Positions 3,024 through 40,215 of a stretch of DNA of 64,000 nucleotides are shown piece by piece. The translations under genes were made by a program, and so were the position numbers. The DNA comes from Candidatus Nanopelagicales bacterium (GTDB lineage: Bacteria; Actinomycetota; Actinomycetes; S36-B12; GCA-2699445): contig JBAOHO010000029.1 in assembly GCA_037045355.1 (NCBI GenBank), positions 139,030 to 203,029 on the forward strand, written 5' to 3'. The notes under the pieces were generated by a model, which was given only the letters and a program-made list of their open reading frames with translations, was not told the DNA's origin and did no database searches. The first letter of the stretch is position 1, and each line of letters opens with the position of its first letter.

Positions 3024-3148
3024 TCTCCTACTCCCGCGGGTACCCGGGTCTCCTACTCCCGCGGGTACCCGGGTCTCCTACTCCCGCGGGTACCCGGGTC
3101 TCCTACTCCCGCGGGTACCCGGGTCTCCTGCTCCCGCAGGTACCCGAG
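3024..3148. repeat. tandem minisatellite, 25-bp unit x5 (TCTCCTACTCCCGCGGGTACCCGGG; last copy degenerate)
   Basis: Four identical units at 3024, 3049, 3074 and 3099, plus a fifth at 3124 with 3 mismatches. Each unit contains the palindromes CCCGCGGG and ACCCGGGT. The array is intergenic between the membrane-protein stop (2991) and the lipA start (3227). Confidence 0.9.
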
Positions 3149-3226
3149 TCTCGGTGGCGGGCTCCGCCGCGGATCGAACCGGCCGAGGGCGGACTCGGGT
3201 GTAGCTATTGAAGTTAGGGTAAGGAC

Positions 3227-4147
3227 ATGGGCGAGGACCGGCGGCTGCTGCGCATCGAACAACGCAACAGCGACACCCCTATCGAACGCAAACCCCCCTG
3301 GATCCGGACGACTCTGCGCACCGGTCCCGAGTACCTGCAGATCCGTTCCCTCGTCGAGCGCGAGAACCTCCATACCGTCTGCCAGGAAGCGGGATGCCCC
3401 AACATCTACGAGTGCTGGGAGGATCGCGAGGCAACGTTCCTCATCGGCGGAGAGCAGTGCACCCGTCGGTGTGACTTCTGCCAGATCGACACGGGACGGC
3501 CGACGCCCCTGGATCTCGATGAACCGCAACGAGTCGCGGACAGCGTCGCCGCCATGGGGCTCGCTTATGCCACCGTCACCGGCGTGGCTCGCGACGACCT
3601 GCCTGACCAAGGGGCCTGGCTCTACGCGGAGACTGTCTCAGCCATTCATCGCACTGTTCCGGACTGCGGCGTTGAAGTGCTGATCCCGGATTTCTCAGCC
3701 GAACTCGATCTGCTGGATCAGGTCTTTGCCGCGCGACCCGAGGTGCTGGCCCACAATCTCGAGACGGTACCGCGCATCTTCAAGCGAATCCGCCCGGCCT
3801 TCCGTTACCAGCGCTCGCTGGAAGTCCTCCAGCAGGCCAAGGACTTCGGGCTCATCACGAAGTCCAACCTGATCTTGGGACTCGGGGAGGAACCTGACGA
3901 AGTCGAGCAGGCACTGGCCGATCTGCGATCTGTGTCCTGCGATCTCATCACGATCACCCAATACCTCCGCCCGAGTCCGCGGCACCATCCAGTGGCCCGC
4001 TGGGTGCATCCGGACGAGTTCCTGCACCTGGAGCAGGTTGCGCGCGACCTTGGTTTCTCCGGTGTCATGAGCGGCCCACTGGTCCGCTCCTCCTACCGTG
4101 CCGGGCGACTGTTCCGATCAGCGTCTGGCGTGTCGGCGGGTTCATGA
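3227..4147 (+). CDS. lipA: lipoyl synthase LipA (radical SAM)
   Basis: 306 aa with the auxiliary-cluster motif CPNIYECW and the radical-SAM motif [10 protein letters not shown], in the conserved lipB-lipA order. Confidence 0.97.
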
Positions 4148-9862: not shown

Positions 9863-10597
9863 CTACTCGACGGAACCGACTCTCGTCGCGGTCAGAACAG
9901 CGGCTACCTGATTGTTGCTGGCGGTGGCGGCCATGTCGGAATCACACACCAGCGCGACGGCCTGTCCGGCAGTCACGGTCATGGCGTATGACACCGAAAC
10001 GGGCGCGTACTCGAATGCGGCCCCGTTACCGGTGAACTTCCCCAGCCACAGGTTGGCGACATCGGACACCGGCACCCCATCGCGGGCAAGGTCGCAGTAG
10101 ACGAATCCGTTCTGGTTCGACGAGACCAGGGCGGATGCGGTCACCAGGTAGCTTCCCGCCGGTAACGTCCGGCCCACGACTGCGGTGTCGGTCGTCAGGA
10201 TGTTCACGGCGGTGAATGGTGCAACAACTTGGTAGGTGGGTCCGTTCGGCCCCTCCGGACCGGTCTGCCCCTGAGGGCCCGTCTGCCCCTGAGGACCGGT
10301 GGCGCCTTGAGGACCAGTAGCGCCAGTCGGGCCCGCCGCACCGGGACGGCCGTCGACTCCCTGTGGCCCGCGGGGCCCCTGAACGTTCCAGGACACCTTG
10401 CGTTCATTCTTCTTGCAGGGCGTCTCTTTGGATTTGACGATTCGGACTTGGCCGGTCTTCTTCTTGATGCAGGCGACCACCCTGGACTCCGCATCGGCAG
10501 CCCAAGCCGGGTGGCCACCCACGAACCCCCCGGCGGTCAGAACCAGAGCCACCAGGGCTACAGCCAGAACATGTTTCCTAACGGGAACGACCGACAC
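9863..10597 (-). CDS. secreted collagen-like triple-helix repeat protein
   Basis: Signal peptide (...[17 protein letters not shown]), then a Cys-bracketed basic stalk ([20 protein letters not shown]). Next come 16 uninterrupted G-X-Y triplets ([24 protein letters not shown]...GPNGPT, DNA 10235-10378) and a C-terminal globular domain of about 120 aa. Confidence 0.85.
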
Positions 10598-11358: not shown

Positions 11359-13134
11359 ATGACTCGGATTCGCCGTCTGCTCACGACAGTCACTGCTGTC
11401 GCCGTCACGACTCCGGGGCTGATCGTCACCACCGCGACCCCCAGCAATGCTTCAGAGGGCCTGAAGGTCGTGGTGGTGAACAACAATCCGGAGTACCGCG
11501 CGGACCAGGTGTGGGTCAAGGCGACCGGAAACGGTGCGGCGGCGCCGGAGTTGCCGTTGTCGCAGCGGTCATCGTTCACGCTGGACAGTGTCAGTTCCGG
11601 CCGCGTGTGGGTCACGTTGGGCAAACCGTTGAACTCGTCGACGTTCCCGAGCCCTGACACCTCGGATGTGCGTTTCGACACCGTCGAGTTGACCTATCCC
11701 GGGGTGGCGAACCTGACTGCGGTGGACATGCTCGGGATCCCGATGGATATCGAGACGTTCGACGCGGCGGGGAATCTGGTGGCGTCCAAGAAGTTCGCGT
11801 GTTACACCGACGTGATCCAAGACACCGTCAAGGACCGGTTGACCGCAGCGGGTGGGGACTACCGCAAGGTGGTCCGCACCGACGCCAACGGCAACTTTCT
11901 GCGCCTGGTGTCTCCGAACATCGTCTCCGGCGCCCATCCCAGCGGTTACCCGCGATTCGAGTCCTACATCAGCTCACTGAAGGGCGAACAGCTGACCGTG
12001 CGCGGTACGGCGATGGGCAAGAACTACCGATACACCGGCACGTTCGCCGACGACCCCCACGATCCCAACGGTCCGGGATCGATCCGGCTGACCGATCAAG
12101 GTCCCGACCAGTTGGCCCCGATGTACGTCAAGGGCAGTTCGCTGGCCGGTAACGACAGTAACGACACCAACGGCATCTACGGCAACAACAGTCCCTACTA
12201 CGTGGACGGCAAACTGCACTCCGGTAACGACGTCTACGGTGCGGTCTACCGCGACCTGGTCGCCGGGTTCGCCTACGGATTTTGGGGCAGTCCCGCCTAC
12301 GGCAACGACAGCGGCCGCTTCGACGTGTCCACCGCGCCGGGCCCGTTCGAAGGCGCCCAACCCGACGCCGCGAACTACAACGTGTGGGCCGCGGCGCTGT
12401 GGCCGATCACTGACGCCTACGGCTTCCCGTACGGTGACACGTTCAACCACCAGCCCGACCGCAACCCGATCGTCGAGCTGCCGACCGATGGCACGCTGAA
12501 GATCACCATCGATCCCGACACCAGCCCGGCCGGATGCGCCGGCGGTACCACCCCGACGCCGACACCGACACCCACGCCCACGGTCACGACTGCGCCCCCG
12601 GCCACCCCCACGCCGACACCGACACCCACGCCCACGGTCACGACTGCGCCCCCGGCCACCTCCACGCCGACACCGCACCGACACCGACGCCCACGGTCAC
12701 GACGGCGCCCCCGGCCACCCCGACGTCCACGCCGACGCCGACACCGACAGACGACACAGACTACCAGCCGATCGACGCCTTGCGTGCGTTCCGCCTACGA
12801 GCGGATCGAGGCCGAGGCGCCCACCGCCACCAACGGCGGCGTGATCGACGGCGGCCATGTCGGCAACCTCGGTAACGGCGACTGGCTCGAATACGGCACC
12901 GTCGACTTCGGCAGCAGCGGCCCCTACCAGGTCAACTCCCTGGTCTCCGGCGGCTCGTCGGGCTCCGGCCTGGTCACCTACCGCGTCGACTCCCCCACCG
13001 GACCTGTCGTGGCGGACTTCGCCATCGCCAACACCGGCGGCTGGAACACCTACAAGCAGATCCCCGCCAACGCCGGCGGAGTCACCGGCGAACATAAGCT
13101 GTACGTCACCTTCACAGTCCGGCTACTCCGGTGA
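11359..13134 (+). CDS. GH64-like beta-1,3-glucanase with P/T linker and CBM6-like module; the ORF ends prematurely after a frame break near 13115
   Basis: ATG 11359 gives a signal-like N-terminus (MTRIRRLLTTVTAVAVTTPGLIVTTATPSNA). The body resembles laminaripentaose-producing GH64 enzymes as I remember them (VVVNNN..., SGRVWVTLGKPL, RFDTVELTY...AVDMLG with candidate catalytic E and D, AYGFPYGDTFNH). It is followed by a carbohydrate-binding module (SAYERIEAE...GNGDWLEYGTVDF...TGGWNTYKQIP). The ORF-track start 10771 overlaps the opposite-strand lipoprotein gene and was rejected. Confidence 0.7.
   Translation: MTRIRRLLTTVTAVAVTTPGLIVTTATPSNASEGLKVVVVNNNPEYRADQVWVKATGNGAAAPELPLSQRSSFTLDSVSSGRVWVTLGKPLNSSTFPSPDTSDVRFDTVELTYPGVANLTAVDMLGIPMDIETFDAAGNLVASKKFACYTDVIQDTVKDRLTAAGGDYRKVVRTDANGNFLRLVSPNIVSGAHPSGYPRFESYISSLKGEQLTVRGTAMGKNYRYTGTFADDPHDPNGPGSIRLTDQGPDQLAPMYVKGSSLAGNDSNDTNGIYGNNSPYYVDGKLHSGNDVYGAVYRDLVAGFAYGFWGSPAYGNDSGRFDVSTAPGPFEGAQPDAANYNVWAAALWPITDAYGFPYGDTFNHQPDRNPIVELPTDGTLKITIDPDTSPAGCAGGTTPTPTPTPTPTVTTAPPATPTPTPTPTPTVTTAPPATSTPTPHRHRRPRSRRRPRPPRRPRRRRHRQTTQTTSRSTPCVRSAYERIEAEAPTATNGGVIDGGHVGNLGNGDWLEYGTVDFGSSGPYQVNSLVSGGSSGSGLVTYRVDSPTGPVVADFAIANTGGWNTYKQIPANAGGVTGEHKLYVTFTVRLLR
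12556..12722 (+). repeat. 54-bp tandem repeat x3 encoding the TPTPTPTPTVTTAPPAT linker; the third copy carries about 5 extra nt
   Basis: Copies start at 12556, 12610 and 12664. The first two are near-identical. The third reads ...ccgacaccgCACCGacaccgacgccc..., which changes the frame. Confidence 0.85.
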
Positions 13135-13812
13135 CTACGTCAACCTCGACCGGTTCCAGTTCTCGGTCAAGGGCGCGCCGCGTCCGGACCTGATGTCGGC
13201 CTACACCGTCACCGAGGCCGAGCAGACCGCTGACCGCCACCGCAAGGTGACCGCCGACGACCGCGTCGTCCGACTGCGCAAGGGCACGTGGCTGGACTAC
13301 GGCACCGTCGACTTCGGCAAGCGCGGACCGGCCGAGGTTGACCTCACTGGTGGCCAACGCCTCGTCGCGCCCCGCGACGGTGTCATTCCGACTCGATGCG
13401 CGCACCGGACGCAAGATCGCCGACTTCACCGTCGTCGGGCAAGGCCGGCGGGGACAGCTTCAAGCAGTACCGCACCAAGACCCGTCCCGTGACCGGCACC
13501 CACCGCCTGTTCGTGACGGCCACCTCGAAGACACAAGCGCGGTGCCGTCGACTTCGACCGGTTCCAGTTCTCGGTCAAGGGCGCACCACGTCCCAACCTG
13601 ACCACCGTCGCCGCCCGTTCGGTCTCGGCCACGCCCTGCCCGACCCCAACTCCGACCCCCACCCCCACCACCCCGACACCGACGCCGACACCAGACACCG
13701 ACACCGACACCCCACACCTACACAGACGCCGACTCCAACACCCACCCCGACACCGACGCCGACCCAGACGGCGACCCCGACCCCGACGCCGACAGCCACC
13801 GCGCCGACCGGT
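13135..13812 (+). pseudogene. frame-scrambled second CBM6-like module plus P/T linker, linking the GH64 ORF to the downstream CBM6-phosphoesterase ORF
   Basis: Pieces of one module are readable in three frames. In order: SGYSGDYVNLDRFQFSVKGAPRP...GTWLDYGTVDFGKRGPAEV; then TSLVANASSRPATVSFRLDARTGRKIADFTVVG; then AGGDSFKQYRTKTRPVTGTHRLFVTATSK; then GAVDFDRFQFSVKGAPRPNL...PTPTPTPTP. I saw no stop codon in the stitched reading. Confidence 0.55.
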
Positions 13813-15201
13813 AGCCGCTCCGCCTACGAGCCCATCGAGGGCGAGTCCGCCGATGCCAACAATGGAGCCCGCATCGACGGTGGACGGGTATCCGACCTCG
13901 GCAACGGCGACTGGCTGTCCTATCGCGACGTCGACTTCGGCGCGATCGGTCCGCACCAGATCTACTCGCTGGTCGCCGGCGGTTCGTCGGGCTCAGGGCT
14001 GGTCAGCTACCGCATCGATTCGCCGACCGGACCCGTGATCGGGAACTTCGCCGTCGGAAACACTGGCGGATGGGACACGTTCAAGCAGATCCCTAGCAAC
14101 GTGTCCTCCTCACCGACAGGTCGACATGACGTGTACATCACCTTCAGTTCCGGCTACCGCAGTGAATACGTCACTCTCGACCGGTTCCAGTTCCAGGTCA
14201 GGGGCGGACCGGTTCCCAATCTGAAGCAGCCGGGTACTCCTACGCCCGCTCCCACGACCTCCCCGACGGGTTCTGCAACGCCGACGGCAACGAGTAGTCC
14301 GACACCGACACCGCCACCGACACCGACACCGCCACCCACGCCCACACCGACGTCAGTGCCGTCGCAGCCAGGTGACGTGGTCATCGCTGCCGCTGGTGAT
14401 ATCGCTTCGGGCACCGACGGTGGGGACTCGCGGTACACCGCGGATCTGGTGATGAGCAACATCAACCGCTACCACAAGGTCCTGGCGTTGGGAGACCTGC
14501 AGTACCCCGACGGCCGTTACAGCGACTTCATCACCTCCTACGACAAGACCTGGGGCCGGTTCAAGAACAAGACCGCGCCGATCATGGGTAACCACGAGGC
14601 CGACGGCGCCGGGTACTGGGACTACTTCAACGGCATCGGCGTCACTGAGGGCCCCGCCGGCACCCGGAACAAGGGCTGGTACTCCTACGACACCGGCGAC
14701 TCCGCGACCAGCGGCTGGCACATCGTGGCGCTGAACTCCGAATGCATGGGCAAACCATGCGGCACCGAGCAGCTGGCCTGGCTGCAAGCCGATCTGGCCG
14801 CCAGCCAGAAGCAGTGCACCGCCGCGTACTGGCACAAACCTCGCTTCTCGTCCGGCAGCCACGGAAACGACTCAGCCATGCAGCCGTTGTGGAACCTGAT
14901 GAACCAGTACAACGCCGAAATCGTGCTCAGCGGCCACGACCACAACTACGAACGGTTCGCCCCCATGAACACATCCGGGGTCCGCGATGACGCCCGCGGT
15001 GTGCGACAGTTCGTGGTCGGCACCGGAGGCATCGGATTTCGCAGCGTCGGCAATACGGCCAACTCACAGGCCCGCAACGCCAACACCCACGGAGTCCTGG
15101 AACTGACCCTCAAGGCCAACTCCTACGACTTCAACTTCGCCCGCGCCAACTACCCCGGAAACGGCACCTTCACCGACTCCGGCAGCGCCACCTGCCACTG
15201 A
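13396..15201 (+). CDS. CBM6-like module + P/T linker + calcineurin-like metallophosphoesterase (the first ~130 codons of the ORF are out of frame relative to the upstream module)
   Basis: From about 13813 there is a third CBM copy (SAYEPIEGE...GNGDWLSYRDVDF...TGGWDTFKQIP...YVTLDRFQFQVRG). After a linker comes a phosphoesterase domain (VIAAAGDIA, LALGDLQY, GNHE, WHKPRFSSGSHG, LSGHDHNYERF). Confidence 0.75.
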   Translation: MRAPDARSPTSPSSGKAGGDSFKQYRTKTRPVTGTHRLFVTATSKTQARCRRLRPVPVLGQGRTTSQPDHRRRPFGLGHALPDPNSDPHPHHPDTDADTRHRHRHPTPTQTPTPTPTPTPTPTQTATPTPTPTATAPTGSRSAYEPIEGESADANNGARIDGGRVSDLGNGDWLSYRDVDFGAIGPHQIYSLVAGGSSGSGLVSYRIDSPTGPVIGNFAVGNTGGWDTFKQIPSNVSSSPTGRHDVYITFSSGYRSEYVTLDRFQFQVRGGPVPNLKQPGTPTPAPTTSPTGSATPTATSSPTPTPPPTPTPPPTPTPTSVPSQPGDVVIAAAGDIASGTDGGDSRYTADLVMSNINRYHKVLALGDLQYPDGRYSDFITSYDKTWGRFKNKTAPIMGNHEADGAGYWDYFNGIGVTEGPAGTRNKGWYSYDTGDSATSGWHIVALNSECMGKPCGTEQLAWLQADLAASQKQCTAAYWHKPRFSSGSHGNDSAMQPLWNLMNQYNAEIVLSGHDHNYERFAPMNTSGVRDDARGVRQFVVGTGGIGFRSVGNTANSQARNANTHGVLELTLKANSYDFNFARANYPGNGTFTDSGSATCH

Positions 15202-18331: not shown

Positions 18332-20482
18332 CTAGCTCTGCGGCACGGGAGTCACGTCTCCCAGCGGTGGCCCCTGGAAGGTCACGTTGAGTTCTGTCAC
18401 CGGTGTTTGCCACTTGAAGTCGAACGGTTCCGAACTACTGAACGGGAATCCCAATTGCGCCGACTCGTAGTACCCGGCAGGCCAGCCCCCGGCCGCTCCC
18501 ATCGTGACGGGGACCGGCCAGTTGTTCCCGTATGCCGTGGCGATGGGGCTGCCGGTTGCAGCGTTGACCTTGAGCCCGGGCAGGCTGACGGTCGGTGATG
18601 CGGTGCACCCGAACTGGGCGGGGACTGCCGCGGCGCCATCGGGGGTCACCATGTCCTCCAGATTGGCCGCCGTCACGGTTCCCAGGGCCACTGCCTGACT
18701 GCCGCCCGCCGAGGCCGCCTGAATCGACACGGGCTGGTTGTTGGCGTTCGGAGCGAGGTAGGGGGTGTTGATGCCGTTGGTGGCCTCGGACACCGATTCC
18801 TCGATGTAGACCGGCTGCCCATCGGCGGTGACGCCAAAGAAATTGACCAACCAGTCGGCGTTCTGCGGGAGTTGACCCGAGCCGTTGGTCGCGGTGGTGG
18901 CCAGCGTGCTCTGTTCGACTGTGGTCGGAGCGCCGTTCCCGAAAGGAGTCGTCAGGGAGGCCGTCATCTGCGACAGATCGCAGCGCAATGTGTAGTCGCC
19001 AGTCGAATCCACCGTCGCATTCATGACCGGCGCGTTGCCGTCGTTGAGCAAGCCGGAGCTGTACTGCGGATTCGTCAGGTAGCTGAGTTGGATGTCCATC
19101 TGGCCCAAAGGAGGTTCGTTGGTACCTCCGTAGTTGCAGTAGTACGGACCGACATCAACACTGGCCCCCTCACATACGGCAACGGCGTCAGGGAATCCCG
19201 GGTTGGGGCCGACGTACTGGATCAGTCCGTCCTGGAATGTGGCGGAGCCGCCCGTGTAGGTCTTCGACGAGGCGTTCGGGGAGACCATCGGAGCCGGCAC
19301 GCCACCGTTCCAGTAGTACATGACGTTGGTCTGCGCACCGAGGGCTTGCTGCAGGGTTCCACCGATGAACGCACTACTGGGCACGTCGGTGAAAGCGCCC
19401 TGATTGCCGGCAGCGGGATTACCGGCCCAGGTATTCGTTGGCGGCCAGTCGGCTTGAGTCGGATCCGTCACGCCGTTCGTCCCGAAGCCGGTGACAGCCG
19501 TCGTCACTCCGAACAGCTGTGGGTATTCGGAGGTCTCATTGCAGGTATCGACCTTGAGACCTTCGAGGAAGGAGACGACGAAACGTACGCTGGCTGCGGC
19601 TACGGCTCCCACGATCCCGGCTCCGGTGTAGGTGCGTGGGTTGAAAGCTGAATCGACCGCTTGCTGCCCGGCAACGTTGCCCGAGTTGACGAGATCGGTC
19701 ATCAAAGTTCCCTGCGTCCCCGGGGCGTTGAGGCCTTTCTCGGCCCCGTAGAGCCCGATCGGGGGGTCATTGGGGGTGGGAGTCTCGCGTGACTTCCCGT
19801 TCTTCCAGTTGGGGTACTGGGCGTAGGCGAACAGGACGGTGTCGCCTGCGTTGGCTGTTTCGACAGCAGCGGGGGGCGGCGCCGAGGCTGTTGCCGCGTA
19901 CATGCATTGAATGACGGGTTGGAAGGTCACTTGCTGCTGGAACGGGGAGTTGTTGTTCACGTAGATGTTGTTGTAGACGGGAGTATTGGAGTTGAGCTCA
20001 GAGGCGTAACTGCCGTCAGCCACCTGCGTGCCGTGAATCAGGGAACGCCGCAGCATCTGGCGCTGCTCGATGGCTCCCGCCGTCACGCGCTGAACCTTCC
20101 GCTTGGACCACTTGCCTTTGACCAAGGGGCCCGCATTCACTTGGGTGACCTCATGGGGAGATCCACCCCTCTTAGTGTCCTTGCGGTGGCTCACGGACAC
20201 CGCCACTGCGGCTCGACGACCTTGGAACCCACGATCCCGCATCTTGTCCGAGGCGCCCTTCGACAGGGGCACCTTCATGGTCATCACCCCGGGCTTCGCG
20301 ACCTTGCGGCTCTGGTGGGATCGCATCAACAGCGCGCTGTCGGGCAAGACCTCCACCGATCGCGGCTTGTTCACCAACGTGTACTTCTTCTTGCCCACGG
20401 CCACGCGCATCCGTACTCGGTCCTGGCGCAGACCATTGCTTGCGCGGGTCCGCTTGGGATCGACGAACACCTTCGCTACCAC
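18332..20482 (-). CDS. large orphan exported protein (N/G/T/A-rich), no recognisable domain; the signal peptide appears displaced into another frame (20476-20682)
   Basis: 716-aa ORF starting at GTG 20482. The same frame stays open and coding-like upstream (...ATPATASKVEAANHVARAGYAPQWVQYPYLAKDGNGKFS) but contains no start codon. The overlapping 68-aa ORF 20476-20682 begins with a Sec-type signal (MLRAIAVTTALATAAAVGSTVGADA). This implies a frame break near 20598-20612 (ggggcggcggc). Confidence 0.65.
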   Translation of the reverse strand: MVAKVFVDPKRTRASNGLRQDRVRMRVAVGKKKYTLVNKPRSVEVLPDSALLMRSHQSRKVAKPGVMTMKVPLSKGASDKMRDRGFQGRRAAVAVSVSHRKDTKRGGSPHEVTQVNAGPLVKGKWSKRKVQRVTAGAIEQRQMLRRSLIHGTQVADGSYASELNSNTPVYNNIYVNNNSPFQQQVTFQPVIQCMYAATASAPPPAAVETANAGDTVLFAYAQYPNWKNGKSRETPTPNDPPIGLYGAEKGLNAPGTQGTLMTDLVNSGNVAGQQAVDSAFNPRTYTGAGIVGAVAAASVRFVVSFLEGLKVDTCNETSEYPQLFGVTTAVTGFGTNGVTDPTQADWPPTNTWAGNPAAGNQGAFTDVPSSAFIGGTLQQALGAQTNVMYYWNGGVPAPMVSPNASSKTYTGGSATFQDGLIQYVGPNPGFPDAVAVCEGASVDVGPYYCNYGGTNEPPLGQMDIQLSYLTNPQYSSGLLNDGNAPVMNATVDSTGDYTLRCDLSQMTASLTTPFGNGAPTTVEQSTLATTATNGSGQLPQNADWLVNFFGVTADGQPVYIEESVSEATNGINTPYLAPNANNQPVSIQAASAGGSQAVALGTVTAANLEDMVTPDGAAAVPAQFGCTASPTVSLPGLKVNAATGSPIATAYGNNWPVPVTMGAAGGWPAGYYESAQLGFPFSSSEPFDFKWQTPVTELNVTFQGPPLGDVTPVPQS

Positions 20483-20694
20483 GCTGAACTTGCCGTTGCC
20501 GTCTTTGGCCAGATAGGGGTACTGGACCCACTGCGGCGCGTAGCCCGCCCTGGCGACGTGATTGGCTGCTTCGACCTTGGATGCGGTCGCGGGCGTGGCG
20601 GGGCGGCGGCATCGGCCCCCACCGTGGACCCGACCGCAGCGGCGGTGGCCAGAGCAGTTGTCACAGCGATGGCACGAAGCATCGGCTCTCCCGA

Positions 20695-20730
20695 CTATTG
20701 GTGGGCCCGAATAGCTATTGGTGGGCCCGA
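20695..20730. repeat. perfect 16-bp direct repeat CTATTGGTGGGCCCGA x2 (20-bp period) just upstream of the orphan protein's signal-peptide start
   Basis: Copies at 20695-20710 and 20715-20730. The ATG of the signal-peptide ORF is at 20682 (minus strand). The repeat lies between that start and the glnA terminator. Confidence 0.8.
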
Positions 20731-20770
20731 GTAGCGGTGGTATGGCAGCCTAACTCCTCCGGCCGACCAC

Positions 20771-20808
20771 GGCCCCGATCTGAACGGTTTCACGCTCAGA
20801 TCGGGGCC
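20771..20808 (-). terminator. stem-loop terminator candidate downstream of glnA
   Basis: Perfect 13-bp inverted repeat GGCCCCGATCTGA-n12-TCAGATCGGGGCC beginning 8 nt after the glnA stop (20816-20818). There is no U-tract, which is common for actinobacterial terminators. Confidence 0.6.
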
Positions 20809-20815
20809 ATATCTG

Positions 20816-22240
20816 TCAGATGTCGTAGTACATCTCGAACTCATGCGGATGCGGACGCAGCCGAATGGGATCGATCTCATTGGCCCGCTTGTAGTCGACC
20901 CACGTCTCGATGAGGTCGGGCGTGAAGACGTTTCCTTCGGTGAGGAAGTCGTGATCCTCCTCGAGAGCTGTCAAGACCCCTTCCAGCGACGAGGGCACCT
21001 GCGGGATGTCCGCGGCTTCGTCCGGGGGCAACTCGTAGAGATCCTTGTCGACGGGGGCCACGGGTTCGATCTTGTTCTTGATCCCGTCCAAACCGGCCAT
21101 CAGCATCGCCGAGAACGCCAGATACGGGTTGCTCGACGGATCCGGCACGCGGAACTCGATGCGCTTGGCCTTGGCGTTCGACCCCGTGATCGGGATGCGG
21201 ATGCAGGCCGATCGGTTGCGCTGTGAGTAGACCAGATTCACAGGAGCCTCGAACCCGGGCACCAGACGGTGGAACGAGTTGGTGGTCGGGTTGGTGAACG
21301 CGAGCACCGCAGGGGCATGGGCCAGGAGTCCGCCGATGTACCAACGAGCCGTGTCAGACAGTCCGGCGTAGCCGAGCTCGTCGTAGAACAGCGGATCGCC
21401 GTCCTTCCACAGCGACTGGTGGCAGTGCATGCCGGAACCGTTGTCCCCGAACAAAGGCTTGGGCATGAATGTCGCGCTCTTGCCATTGGCCCAGGCCACG
21501 TTCTTGATCACGTACTTGAACAGCATCACCTGGTCGGCTGCGTGCAGCAGGGTGTTGAACTTGTAGTTGATCTCGGCCTGGCCGGCGGTACCGACTTCGT
21601 GGTGAGCTCGCTCGACCTCGAGGCCGACATCCATGAGAGTGCGGCTCATCTGGTCGCGCAGGTCCGCGTAGTGGTCGACCGGGGGAACGGGGAAGTATCC
21701 GCCCTTGTACCGCGTCTTGTAACCGCGGTTTCCGCCCTCTTCCTCGCGACCCGAGTTCCAAGCGCCCTCGATCGAGTCGATGAAGTAGTACCCGGCGTTC
21801 TGCTTGGTCTCGAACCGAACGTCGTCGAAAACGTAGAACTCGGCCTCGGGACCGAAGTACGCCGTGTCGGCGATGCCGGTGGACCGCAGGTAGTTCTCCG
21901 CCTTGGCCGCGATCTGACGAGGGTCGCGGGAGTAGGGCTCGTCGGTGAACGGGTCGCGGATCGAGAAGTTCATGACGAGTGTCTTCTCAGCCCGGAATGG
22001 ATCGACGAAGGCGGTGACGGGGTCCGGCACCAGCTTCATGTCCGACTCGTGGATGGCCTGGAAGCCGCGGATCGAGGACCCGTCGAACATCTGGCCGTCC
22101 GTGAAGAACGCATCGTCGACACTGGCCACGGGCACGTTGAAGTGCTGCATCACGCCAGGCAGATCACAGAACCGGACGTCTATGAACTTGACGTCCTCGT
22201 CCTTGACGTAGCGCAATACCTCGTCTGCGTTGTTGAACAT
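20816..22240 (-). CDS. glnA: glutamine synthetase type I (GlnA1-like)
   Basis: 474 aa with full-length GSI features ([29 protein letters not shown]..., ...[12 protein letters not shown]..., and the adenylylation-loop region ...DKDLYELPP). A strong RBS (AGGAGGG) precedes the ATG. Confidence 0.97.
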
Positions 22241-22323
22241 TCACCCTCCTAGGTGTCCGGAGCGAGCCGGGCGGTCGCCGCCCAGTTTCCCCCTCCTGGT
22301 CGTTGCGACAGTAGGCGGGGGGC

Positions 22324-22361
22324 ATTAATCACCCGTGTCCCTTGTGTTTCGCCCGTGTTAC
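22324..22361 (-). promoter_or_regulatory. candidate GlnR box upstream of glnA
   Basis: The minus strand reads GTAAC-acgggc-GAAAC-acaagg-GACAC-gggtga-TTAAT. The first half matches the published actinobacterial GlnR a/b-site pattern gTnAc-n6-GaAAc exactly. The second half is degenerate. The site ends about 84 nt upstream of the glnA ATG. Confidence 0.45.
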
Positions 22362-22434
22362 GTGCTCCAGGGTTCGCTCTCAGTCCACGACAACTGGTCT
22401 CGCCCTTGTCACGGAGTCGACGACCGGCCTCGGA

Positions 22435-22630
22435 CCTCTGCTGCCGCGGGTGGGGTCCTCTGCTGCCGCAGGTAGGGTCCTCTGCTGCCGCGGGTAGGGT
22501 CCTCTGCTGCACGCGGGTGGGGTCCTCTGCCGACGCGGGTGGGTCCTCTGCCGATGCGGGTGGGGTCCTCTGCTGCCGCGGGTGGGGTCCTCTGCTGCCG
22601 CGGGTGGAGTCCTCTGCTGCCGCGGGTGGA
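22435..22630. repeat. tandem minisatellite, ~22-bp unit x9 (CCTCTGCTGCCGCGGGTGGGGT and variants)
   Basis: Unit starts at 22435, 22457, 22479, 22501, 22524, 22545, 22567, 22589 and 22611, giving periods of 21-23 bp. The array lies in the divergent region between glnA (start 22240) and the RDD gene. It shares the TCCT...CCGCGGGT...GGTC skeleton with the 3024-3148 array. Confidence 0.9.
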
Positions 22631-22772
22631 TAGGGCGCCGAAAGGCAGACTGGATTACCGAAGCGTTACGGAATCCGTGAGTGGCGCGAAGAGGCCGGTA
22701 TCGGATCGGCCCCTTGCGCCGACTGACGCGCCCGTTCTGCGGCCACCTGAGCAGACGGGTACCGTGGGGCCC

Positions 22773-23234
22773 GTGGACAGGAGAGCTCTGGGGTCGTGGC
22801 TGACGACACCGGGAGAAGCACCCGAGGTCATGGGGCCGACCCAGGACTTCCGCGGCCAGAGGCTGGGCCTTCCCGAGTCCGGTCCCGGCTCGATCGCCCC
22901 CGTCAGTCGCCGGGTCATCGCACTGCTCATCGACTGGAGCGCCGCCATGATCGTGGCCCGCTTCTTCGCCGGATTCGGCACCGACGGCTACGCTTGGCTG
23001 ACCCTGGCGATCTTCGCTGGGCAGACCACCATTCTGCAGTGGCTCATGGGCTCATCGTTCGGTCAACGGATCACCAAGGTGGCCGTCGTCAGGGTCGACG
23101 GCGGTCGACTCGGCATCCTGCCGCTGATGGTGCGCACCGCGTTGGTATGCCTGGTCATCCCCGCGGTCGTCTGGGACCGGGACACGCGCGGCTTGCATGA
23201 CCGGGCAGTGCGTACGGTCTGCGTCCGGCGTTGA
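22773..23234 (+). CDS. RDD family membrane protein
   Basis: GTG 22773 (or GTG 22764) gives about 153 aa: ...QDFRGQRLGLPESGPGSIAPVSRRVIALLIDW... followed by TM helices and RD...D residues near the C-terminus. The ORF-track start 22539 lies inside the minisatellite and was rejected. Confidence 0.75.
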   Translation: MDRRALGSWLTTPGEAPEVMGPTQDFRGQRLGLPESGPGSIAPVSRRVIALLIDWSAAMIVARFFAGFGTDGYAWLTLAIFAGQTTILQWLMGSSFGQRITKVAVVRVDGGRLGILPLMVRTALVCLVIPAVVWDRDTRGLHDRAVRTVCVRR

Positions 23235-39842: not shown

Positions 39843-40215
39843 TGGACGAGTCGGTCGGACGGTCGCGGTGGTACGCCACCGAGGAAAGTCCGGACTCCAC
39901 ACGGCAGGGTGGTGGCCAACAGCCACCCGGGGTGACCCGCGGGACAGTGCCACAGAAAGCAGACCGCCGCTGCGAAGCGGTAAGGGTGAAACGGTGGTGT
40001 AAGAGACCACCAGCGGCCGGGGTGACCCGGTCGGCTCGGCAAACCCCACCCGGAGCAAGGTCAAGAGGGCGCTTCGGCGCCTGCGCGGACGTTCGAGAGT
40101 TGCCCGCTCGAGTCCGCGGGTGGACCGCACCAGGCCGGCGGCAACGCCGGTCGCAGATGGATGGCCGTCGGCGTGCAAGCGTCACAGAATCCGGCTTACA
40201 GACCGACTCGTCCCC
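39843..40215 (+). ncRNA. rnpB: RNase P RNA, bacterial type A
   Basis: Universal motifs GAGGAAAGTCCGGACTCCAC (39881-39900) and ACAGAATCCGGCTTACAG near the 3' end. A 13-bp P1 helix pairs GGACGAGTCGGTC (39844-39856) with GACCGACTCGTCC (40201-40213). GGTAAGGGTGAAA is also present. Confidence 0.92.

What the first reader, a model, noticed from the sequence alone, without database searches (positions are those of the whole stretch)
22435..22630. Nine-copy ~22-bp minisatellite filling the glnA / RDD divergent promoter region
Nine units (periods 21-23 bp) with point variants (GCCGCGGGTGGGG, GCCGCAGGTAGGG, GCACGCGGGTGGGG, CCGACGCGGGTGGG, CCGATGCGGGTGGGG) lie about 195-390 bp upstream of glnA, beyond the candidate GlnR box, and about 140 bp upstream of the RDD start. 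A period close to two helical turns and the internal CCGCGG palindrome suggest phased protein binding or DNA-structure effects on two divergent promoters. Copy-number change could modulate glnA or RDD expression. The six-frame track turns this array into spurious ORFs (22253-22633 and the N-terminus of 22539-23234).
Basis: seen in the sequence. Interest (0 to 1): 0.55.

Follow-up and report, generated by a model that had tools for sequence, protein, structure and literature searches.

The report
Variable 22-bp repeat upstream of glnA
A real nine-copy 22-bp tandem repeat lies in unconstrained spacer DNA between the glnA and RDD genes of an uncultured sewage actinobacterium. Its copy number runs from 2 to 9 among wild strains, so it looks like an ordinary hypervariable minisatellite and not a demonstrated regulatory device.

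Summary
Window 22435-22632 holds about 9 head-to-tail units of 21-23 bp (TRF score 311; 0 such matches expected by chance). The array lies 195-392 bp upstream of glnA, 73 bp beyond a conserved GlnR box, and about 140 bp upstream of the RDD start.

Sixteen independent sewage or wastewater contigs encode an identical GlnA or RDD protein. They carry 2, 3, 4 or 9 units, in two unit haplotypes. The nearest other species (GlnA 80-86% identical) have the GlnR box but no array.

The array's flanks differ between haplotypes at the neutral rate: 6.6%, against 7.0% at glnA four-fold sites. The promoter and GlnR-box stretch differs by only 1.65%.

Other tests found nothing:
- no RNA structure and no Rfam match;
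- no coding potential;
- no GlnR or PhoP box in the units;
- no plasmid or phage relative.

A second polymorphic array (25 bp, 2-5 copies, window 3024-3152) lies upstream of lipA. It shares a unit core with this one, so a small repeat family is possible but unproven.

Verdict: a lineage-specific, slippage-driven VNTR in promoter-distal spacer DNA. This is a new member of a known kind. A regulatory role is untested and not favoured. Interest is low.

The parts
22435..22632 (.). Array A: 9 tandem units of 21-23 bp. The + strand unit is (G)GTCCTCTGCTGCCGCGGGTGG(G). The unit nearest glnA is degenerate (GACCTCTGC...).
   Evidence: Copy number is 2-9 in other contigs.
22399..22434 (.). Flank on the glnA side of the array. 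About 31 bp of it is deleted between CGAGACC direct repeats in some 'GAC' haplotype contigs.
   Evidence: compare L001, L002, L004 and L008 with L007 and the window.
22346..22361 (-). GlnR box GTAACACGGGCGAAAC (gTnAc-n6-GaAAc type), distal site of the glnA promoter.
   Evidence: Conserved at -89 to -142 in relatives L010-L020. Consensus as given in PMC6988585.
22324..22339 (-). Probable second GlnR site, GACACGGGTGATTAAT. Relatives have GTCAC-n6-GAAAT here.
   Evidence: The assignment is an inference from alignment by eye.
20816..22240 (-). glnA, glutamine synthetase type I, 474 aa.
   Evidence: Pfam Gln-synt_C 459.8 bits and Gln-synt_N 98.3 bits.
22633..22772 (.). 140-bp spacer between the array and the RDD start. 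It presumably holds the RDD promoter and evolves at the neutral rate.
   Evidence: 9 of 140 substitutions between haplotypes.
22773..23234 (+). RDD-family membrane protein gene, divergent from glnA. GTG 22773 is favoured because the N-terminus aligns with relatives. Gene callers use ATG 22830.
3024..3152 (.). Array B: 5.2 tandem units of 25 bp, TCTCCTACTCCCGCGGGTACCCGGG, 75 bp upstream of lipA. Its unit core is related to array A, and it is also copy-number variable (2-5).
3227..4147 (+). lipA, lipoyl synthase, downstream of array B.

Best explanation
Array A is a young, lineage-specific, non-coding minisatellite (VNTR). It lies in functionally unconstrained spacer DNA between two divergent promoters.

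It grows and shrinks in whole 22-bp units, by replication slippage or unequal recombination between the direct repeats. That mechanism is inferred. Units within one haplotype are homogenised by this turnover.

The glnA core promoter and its GlnR operator lie within 121 bp of the ATG and stay intact whatever the copy number. The most likely functional consequence is therefore none. At most there is a small, sequence-independent change in the distance between the glnA and RDD promoters.

Shown: the array, its polymorphism, its absence in relatives, and neutral-rate flanks. Inferred: the slippage mechanism and the lack of function.
For: 1. Copy number. Among 16 independent complete alleles from sewage or wastewater assemblies with identical GlnA or RDD, the counts are 2 units (6 contigs), 3 (4), 4 (3) and 9 (3). 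The short alleles are shorter than the assemblers' k-mers (k127, k141), so they must exist in reads.

2. Concerted evolution. There are two unit haplotypes (..GCGGCAGCAG.. and ..GCGACAGCAG..). All interior units of the second are identical. The 9-unit alleles keep the same order of variant units.

3. Lineage specificity. It is absent from the nearest species (GlnA 80-86% identical). There the RDD-glnA spacer is only about 200 bp and still has the GlnR box. Pattern scans of genome, metagenome and viral collections found only this locus.

4. Neutral flanks. Between haplotypes the flanks differ at 12 of 181 sites (6.6%) and glnA four-fold sites at 16 of 230 (7.0%; Fisher p = 1.0). The ATG-to-GlnR-box segment differs at 2 of 121 (1.65%; p = 0.04 against four-fold sites). 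Part of one flank is deleted in some strains.

5. No sign of another role. RNA folding is no better than shuffles on either strand (z = +0.6 and +1.3). There is no Rfam match, no sigma-70-like promoter or terminator, and no homologue of any translation.

6. A general property of this genome. Other intergenic tandem duplications nearby are also polymorphic: array B and the 20-bp duplication at 20695-20735.
Against: The unit of array A resembles that of array B, which is 19 kb away: 17 of 22 positions plus one 3-nt indel. Only 1 of 400 shuffles scores as well. Both arrays have the same orientation relative to the downstream + strand gene. Pure local slippage does not explain this, and it hints at a common origin or a common ligand.

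Both arrays lie upstream of promoters, where copy-number changes are known to alter expression in Mycobacterium tuberculosis (PMC12817950).

No expression or binding data exist for this uncultured organism, so lack of function is inferred and not shown. The substitution counts behind the neutrality argument are small.
Confidence: 0.7

Rival explanations
1. Contingency or phase-variable promoter element. Changes in unit number alter the output of the RDD promoter (or glnA, or lipA for array B). They would do so by changing the distance or torsional coupling between the divergent promoters, or by adding weak upstream elements. The population would then hold expression variants.
For: Copy number is highly variable in nature. 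Both arrays lie upstream of genes. Promoter tandem repeats with variable copy number are linked to altered expression in M. tuberculosis (PMC12817950). Two units of the window allele carry a TAGGGT (TANNNT) hexamer on the RDD strand.
Against: The units are 22 bp, too short to carry a whole promoter. They lie 140-195 bp from the start codons, whereas the M. tuberculosis repeats are 54-58 bp units 12-29 bp upstream. The scan found no promoter-like site. The TANNNT variant is absent from most alleles. The flanks evolve neutrally. The GlnR operator and core promoter are untouched.
Confidence: 0.15
2. Binding-site array. One sequence-specific protein recognises the shared core CTrCTsCCGCGGGT..GGGTC and coats arrays A and B, co-regulating RDD or glnA with lipA.
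For: The unit core and orientation are shared between two otherwise unrelated intergenic regions. The CCGCGG palindrome and the roughly two-turn period of array A are compatible with binding.
Against: There is no match to the GlnR/AfsQ1 or PhoP boxes (and direct reading of the sequence). CCGCGG is intact in 5 of 9 units only. One natural haplotype of array B has lost it in all units. Array B has a 25-bp period. No single units occur elsewhere in 64 kb. Strains with 2 units carry the same intact GlnA and RDD coding sequences as strains with 9. The array is absent from related species.
Confidence: 0.08
3. A member of a dispersed, possibly mobile, minisatellite family of the MIRU or BrickBuilt type, with many copies around the genome. 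Arrays A and B would be two of its insertions.
For: There are two related arrays in 64 kb, both intergenic and both variable. BrickBuilt of Porphyromonas gingivalis is a precedent: 23-nt tandem units, intergenic, 19 copies (PMC4596501).
Against: The flanks of A and B share nothing, so there is no common leader or tail. The only flanking inverted repeat (19 nt, 14 matches) is reached by 30 of 200 shuffles, and its left arm is deleted in some strains. The 8 kb or so of extra sequence recovered from this species holds no further member. Collection scans found none, although they evidently hold little of this species.
Confidence: 0.2
4. A non-B DNA element. The G-runs on the + strand (GGGTGGGG, one per unit) would fold into tandem G-quadruplexes that affect transcription or replication.
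For: A pattern of four G3+ runs with loops up to 15 nt matches three times in the array.
Against: Such patterns are common in this window: 37 in 64 kb. The 'GAC' haplotype units read GGGTGGAG, with only one G3 run. There is no strand-specific fold advantage.
Confidence: 0.04

Closest known systems
Bacterial intergenic VNTR or minisatellite loci, for example the MIRU-VNTR loci of Mycobacterium tuberculosis
   Same: Head-to-tail non-coding units, intergenic, with copy number differing among closely related strains. Variant units sit in a stable order, and more than one related locus exists per genome.
   Different: The units are 22 bp, not 40-100 bp. There is no sequence similarity to MIRUs and no small ORFs overlapping flanking genes. 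Array A lies between divergent genes, not inside an operon. Only two loci are known. The MIRU features listed here are from my own knowledge.
Promoter tandem repeats of M. tuberculosis (dop, lpdA-glpD2, cysG-efpA; PMC12817950)
   Same: An actinobacterial tandem repeat upstream of a gene, with frequent copy-number change among strains.
   Different: Those units are 54-58 bp, described by the authors as tandemly repeated promoter sequence, and lie 12-29 bp from leaderless genes. Here the units are 22 bp with no promoter match, lie 140-195 bp away, and sit outside the conserved promoter.
BrickBuilt, a minisatellite-bearing MITE of Porphyromonas gingivalis (PMC4596501)
   Same: Tandem units of about 23 nt without spacers, always intergenic, in several related copies.
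   Different: BrickBuilt has conserved leader and tail subunits with inverted-repeat ends, and 19 copies per genome. Here the flanks of the two arrays are unrelated and there is no significant terminal inverted repeat.
Eight degenerate 12-nt repeats upstream of Streptomyces pstS (as described in PMC6988585)
   Same: Direct repeats upstream of, and separate from, the response-regulator box of an actinobacterial nutrient-regulated promoter.
   Different: Those repeats are reported to take part in carbon-source control. Here no function is shown, the sequence is unrelated, and the array is polymorphic and lineage-specific.

Membership tests
Bacterial VNTR / minisatellite | Head-to-tail tandem units of about 10-100 bp | tested here: met
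   TRF: period 22, 8.9 copies, 91% matches.
Bacterial VNTR / minisatellite | Copy number differs among closely related strains | tested here: met
   2, 3, 4 and 9 units in 16 contigs with identical GlnA or RDD.
Bacterial VNTR / minisatellite | Non-coding | tested here: met
   Alleles differ by non-multiples of 3. No gene is called there. The translations have no homologue.
MIRU (mycobacterial interspersed repetitive units) | Units of 40-100 bp with small ORFs overlapping neighbouring genes inside operons | tested here: not met
   22-bp units between divergent genes. The MIRU definition is from my own knowledge.
MIRU (mycobacterial interspersed repetitive units) | Dispersed at tens of loci in the genome | tested here: inconclusive
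   Two related arrays in 64 kb. No more of this genome could be reached.
BrickBuilt-type MITE with internal minisatellite | Conserved leader and tail flanks with inverted-repeat ends, shared by all copies | tested here: not met
   The flanks of A and B are unrelated. The best flanking inverted repeat, 14 of 19 matches, is reached by 30 of 200 shuffles.
M. tuberculosis-type promoter tandem repeat | The repeated unit is promoter sequence (as described in PMC12817950) and lies immediately upstream of the gene | tested here: not met
   No promoter-like site. The unit is 22 bp and lies 141-195 bp from the start codons. Compare 54-58 bp units 12-29 bp upstream.
GlnR / AfsQ1 / MtrA operator | GTnAC-n6-G(T/a)nAC box | tested here: not met
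   There is no GTnAC in either strand of the unit. The real GlnR box is 73 bp away.
PhoP PHO box | At least two adjacent 11-nt direct repeat units with a GTTCACC core | tested here: not met
   The best segment, GGTCCTC, matches 4 of 7, and occurs once per 22 bp, not every 11 bp.
CRISPR array | Repeats separated by unique spacers | tested here: not met
   Units abut with no spacers.
Plasmid or phage iterons | Similar repeat next to a replication gene, or in plasmid or phage records | tested here: not met
   No blastn match in 72,556 plasmids or 50,697 phages. The neighbours are glnA and RDD.
Structured RNA (riboswitch or sRNA) | Fold better than shuffles, or an Rfam match | tested here: not met
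   z = +0.61 and +1.29. Only chance-level Rfam hits with E > 7.

The most novel reading that the evidence does not exclude
Arrays A and B belong to a genome-wide family of short promoter-upstream minisatellites with a shared core (CTrCTsCCGCGGGT..GGGTC). Rapid copy-number change in these arrays would tune or switch expression of the downstream genes (RDD or glnA, lipA and others). The means would be either a common DNA-binding protein or promoter spacing. That would give an uncultured sewage actinobacterium a set of contingency loci acting on core metabolism.
Probability: 0.1. Interest if true: 0.55.

Novelty: new member of a known kind. Interest (0 to 1): 0.22.

Why it matters
As it stands, the array is a well-documented natural VNTR in an uncultured sewage actinobacterium related to Nanopelagicales and Motilibacterales. 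Together with the lipA array it could serve as a strain-typing marker. It also breaks short-read assemblies: several contigs end at or next to it.

It would matter more if the shared core of the two arrays reflects a dispersed family that modulates promoters. That would extend promoter-repeat phase variation, recently described in M. tuberculosis, to free-living Actinomycetes and to central nitrogen and lipoate genes. The present evidence does not favour this.

Tried and rejected
- **PhoP PHO-box idea.** I recalled that the unit half GGTCCTCTGCT resembles a PHO direct repeat unit. Against the published GTTCACC core (PMC6988585) it matches only 4 of 7. It also recurs every 22 bp and not every 11 bp. 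Rejected.
- **GlnR/AfsQ1/MtrA box in the units.** Absent.
- **Structured RNA.** Folding of both strands is no better than shuffles. Rfam at gathering and at E <= 10 gave nothing.
- **Hidden coding repeat.** A concatenated translation of both arrays on both strands gave no hit among 5.8 billion proteins.
- **MITE with terminal inverted repeats.** The inverted repeat is not significant, and one arm is deleted in some strains.
- **Restriction-site avoidance or decoy.** CCGCGG is seen 68 times against 73 expected outside the arrays.
- **G-quadruplex.** The motif is common in the window and is lost in one haplotype.
- **Iteron, plasmid or phage origin.** No blastn match.
- **Other family members by pattern.** The two-unit pattern gave 0 hits in genome contigs and viral contigs, and only the same locus in metagenome contigs. 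The metagenome scan missed array B of a JGI contig that I hold (L093), so these collections contain little of this species.
- **Walking along the genome.** The lipA look-up at 10-kb flank added about 6.8 kb to the left. A right-end protein gave only short contigs. A homologue search plus look-up reached only a 3.5-kb contig. No further related array was found.
- **Recurrent arrays upstream of glnA in other Actinomycetes.** One of 80 loci has an array above the score cut-off used (L015), and a second has a weaker one (L084). About 0.35 were expected from the background density, so there is no significant enrichment.

Full report
**1. The observation**

The sequence at 22435-22632 is a genuine tandem array.
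- Tandem Repeats Finder gives period 22, 8.9 copies, 91% matches and score 311.
- The consensus CCTCTGCTGCCGCGGGTGGGGT with up to 3 mismatches occurs 7 times, all inside the array, against 0 expected.

The neighbours are as stated.
- glnA (Pfam Gln-synt_N and Gln-synt_C) lies on the - strand with its ATG at 22240.
- An RDD-family gene lies on the + strand.
- The RDD N-terminus aligns with relatives from the GTG at 22773. The array therefore ends 141 bp from RDD and starts 195 bp from glnA.
- The candidate GlnR box is real. GTAACACGGGCGAAAC at 22346-22361 (- strand) is conserved at the same relative position in a dozen related genomes, and it fits the gTnAc-n6-GaAAc consensus (PMC6988585).

Three small corrections apply.
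- The CCGCGG palindrome is intact in only 5 of the 9 units.
- The window carries single-base insertions relative to a 99.3% identical contig. These frameshift the MFS gene and glnE, which are intact (387 and 991 aa) elsewhere. The window assembly therefore has indel errors, and the extra A that makes the 23-bp unit is probably one of them.
- The count of nine units is nevertheless confirmed by two independent contigs, L005 and L009.

**2. Population evidence**

Looking up the exact GlnA and RDD proteins returned contigs from urban sewage and wastewater assemblies and one NCBI MAG. Sixteen independent contigs span the whole array.

| Units | Contigs |
|---|---|
| 2 | 6 |
| 3 | 4 |
| 4 | 3 |
| 9 | 3 |

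Source.

- The short alleles (44-88 bp) are shorter than the k-mers used (k127, k141). They cannot be collapse artefacts.
- There are two unit haplotypes. The 'GGC' type (..CCCGCGGCAGCAG..) occurs with 4 or 9 units and keeps a stable order of variant units. The 'GAC' type (..CCCGCGACAGCAG..) occurs with 2-4 units, and its interior units are identical.
- This is the classic signature of unit turnover with homogenisation.
- A segment of about 31 bp next to the array is also present or absent between CGAGACC direct repeats.
- Several contigs end at or beside the array, which is consistent with within-sample length heterogeneity.

**3. Comparative evidence**

- The nearest species in a collection of one genome per species have GlnA only 80-86% identical. 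They are unnamed Actinomycetes MAGs, with Nanopelagicales, Motilibacterales and Kineococcus-like neighbours.
- They keep the divergent RDD-glnA arrangement and the GlnR box. Their spacer is only about 200 bp and has no array and no unit-like sequence.
- One MAG (L015) has an unrelated 72-bp x 2.7 array just upstream of its GlnR box. One array above the score cut-off in 80 loci, plus a weaker one in L084, is not significantly above the 0.35 expected from the background density.
- Scans with a two-unit pattern found nothing in genome or viral collections and only the same locus in metagenomes. These collections clearly hold little of this species.

**4. Constraint**

I compared the window with the 'GAC' haplotype.

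| Segment | Differences | Rate |
|---|---|---|
| glnA four-fold degenerate sites | 16 of 230 | 7.0% |
| The two array flanks | 12 of 181 | 6.6% |
| ATG to the end of the GlnR box (121 bp) | 2 of 121 | 1.65% |

- GlnA protein is identical between the two, and glnA differs at 24 synonymous positions in all.
- The flanks are indistinguishable from the four-fold sites (Fisher p = 1.0).
- The promoter segment is lower than the four-fold sites (p = 0.04).
- The array therefore lies in DNA that evolves as if unconstrained, next to a promoter that is constrained.

**5. Tests of alternative natures**

- RNA: folding energy of either strand is no better than shuffles. There is no Rfam match.
- Promoter or terminator: no consensus-like promoter or terminator. 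Only two variant units carry a TANNNT hexamer.
- Coding: ruled out by the 22-bp length steps, by the gene calls, and by the absence of homologues.
- Known operators: no GlnR/AfsQ1 box. The PHO-box resemblance I recalled fails against the published core.
- Mobile element: the flanking inverted repeat is not significant and is partly deleted in some strains. There is no plasmid or phage similarity.
- Restriction-site effects: CCGCGG is not avoided.
- G-quadruplex: motifs are present but common, and they depend on the haplotype.

**6. The sister array**

- Window 3024-3152 holds 5.2 units of 25 bp (TCTCCTACTCCCGCGGGTACCCGGG), 75 bp upstream of lipA.
- It is also polymorphic, with 2, 3, 4 or 5 resolved copies. 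A diverged three-unit haplotype has lost CCGCGG.
- Its unit aligns with that of array A: CTGCTGCCGCGGGTG---GGGTC against CTACTCCCGCGGGTACCCGGGTC. That is 17 of 22 positions plus one indel, in the same orientation relative to the downstream + strand gene. Only 1 of 400 shuffles scores as well.
- The flanks are unrelated, and no single units occur elsewhere in the window.
- This similarity is the one feature that local slippage does not explain. It may mean a small dispersed family, a shared ligand, or chance.
- I could not obtain more of this genome to count members.
- A third small intergenic tandem duplication (20 bp, 20695-20735) is also 1 or 2 copies depending on haplotype. This suggests that this genome's intergenic DNA is generally prone to such events.

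**7. Mechanism and comparison**

- The best-supported reading is a hypervariable minisatellite that expands and contracts by slippage or unequal recombination in promoter-distal spacer DNA. It has no sequence-specific function (confidence about 0.7).
- It meets every defining feature of a bacterial VNTR.
- It does not meet the defining features of any of these:
  - MIRUs;
  - the BrickBuilt MITE (PMC4596501);
  - M. tuberculosis promoter tandem repeats (PMC12817950), whose units are larger and lie next to the gene;
  - response-regulator boxes;
  - iterons;
  - CRISPR arrays.
- It could still work like a promoter-repeat contingency locus, through spacing effects on the RDD promoter. That is untested, and I rate it at about 0.15.

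**8. Verdict**

It is a new member of a known kind, and interest is low (0.22).

Noticed in passing
window 3024-3152: A second intergenic minisatellite, 25 bp x 5.2 copies (TCTCCTACTCCCGCGGGTACCCGGG), lies 75 bp upstream of lipA. It has 2-5 copies in other contigs, plus a diverged 3-unit haplotype lacking CCGCGG. Its unit core is related to the glnA array.
   Followed up: yes
window 20695-20735: A near-palindromic 20-bp unit, CTATTGGTGGGCCCGAATAG, is duplicated in tandem between the glnA stop and the start of a 780-aa secreted-protein gene. There are two copies in 'GGC' haplotype contigs and one in 'GAC' contigs. It could be an operator or just another slippage product.
   Followed up: partly
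window about 23625, 23771, 24181, 25204 (and inside the array): Single-base insertions relative to the 99.3% identical contig L009 frameshift the MFS gene (387 aa elsewhere) and glnE (991 aa elsewhere). The signal-peptide ORF at 20476-20682 is also out of frame with 18332-20482. The window assembly appears to carry indel errors of the long-read type.
   Followed up: partly
window 22399-22434: A segment of about 31 bp next to the array is present or absent among strains. It is bounded by CGAGACC(A/G)GTT direct repeats.
   Followed up: partly
L015 3689-3884: A Nanopelagicales MAG (GlnA 85% identical) has an unrelated 72-bp x 2.7 tandem array ending about 25 bp upstream of its glnA GlnR box. This is an independent array at the equivalent position.
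   Followed up: partly
L104 5372-5420; L104 6370-6404 vs L105 6137-6225: Just left of the window in the same species there is a 21-bp x 2.3 intergenic repeat between lpd and sucB. An 18-bp coding repeat in the sucB linker has 1.9 copies in one strain and 4.9 in another.
   Followed up: no
window 10249-10324, 12548-12749, 13639-13794, 14299-14351: Coding tandem repeats lie in secreted-protein genes. One is collagen-like (Gly-X-Y) on the - strand; the others are long CCGACA/CCACGC hexamer-based repeats. These are not part of the finding.
   Followed up: no
window 20760-20815: There is a strong hairpin just downstream of the glnA stop (GGCCCCGATCTGA...TCAGATCGGGGCC), a likely terminator. The stem is conserved and the loop differs between haplotypes.
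   Followed up: no
L119: This contig is a recombinant haplotype. Its glnA is close to the window (0.4% different), but the array flanks and units are of the 'GAC' type. This shows recombination within the species near this locus.
   Followed up: no
window 39847-40214: Bacterial RNase P RNA class A (Rfam RF00010, 284.6 bits).
   Followed up: no
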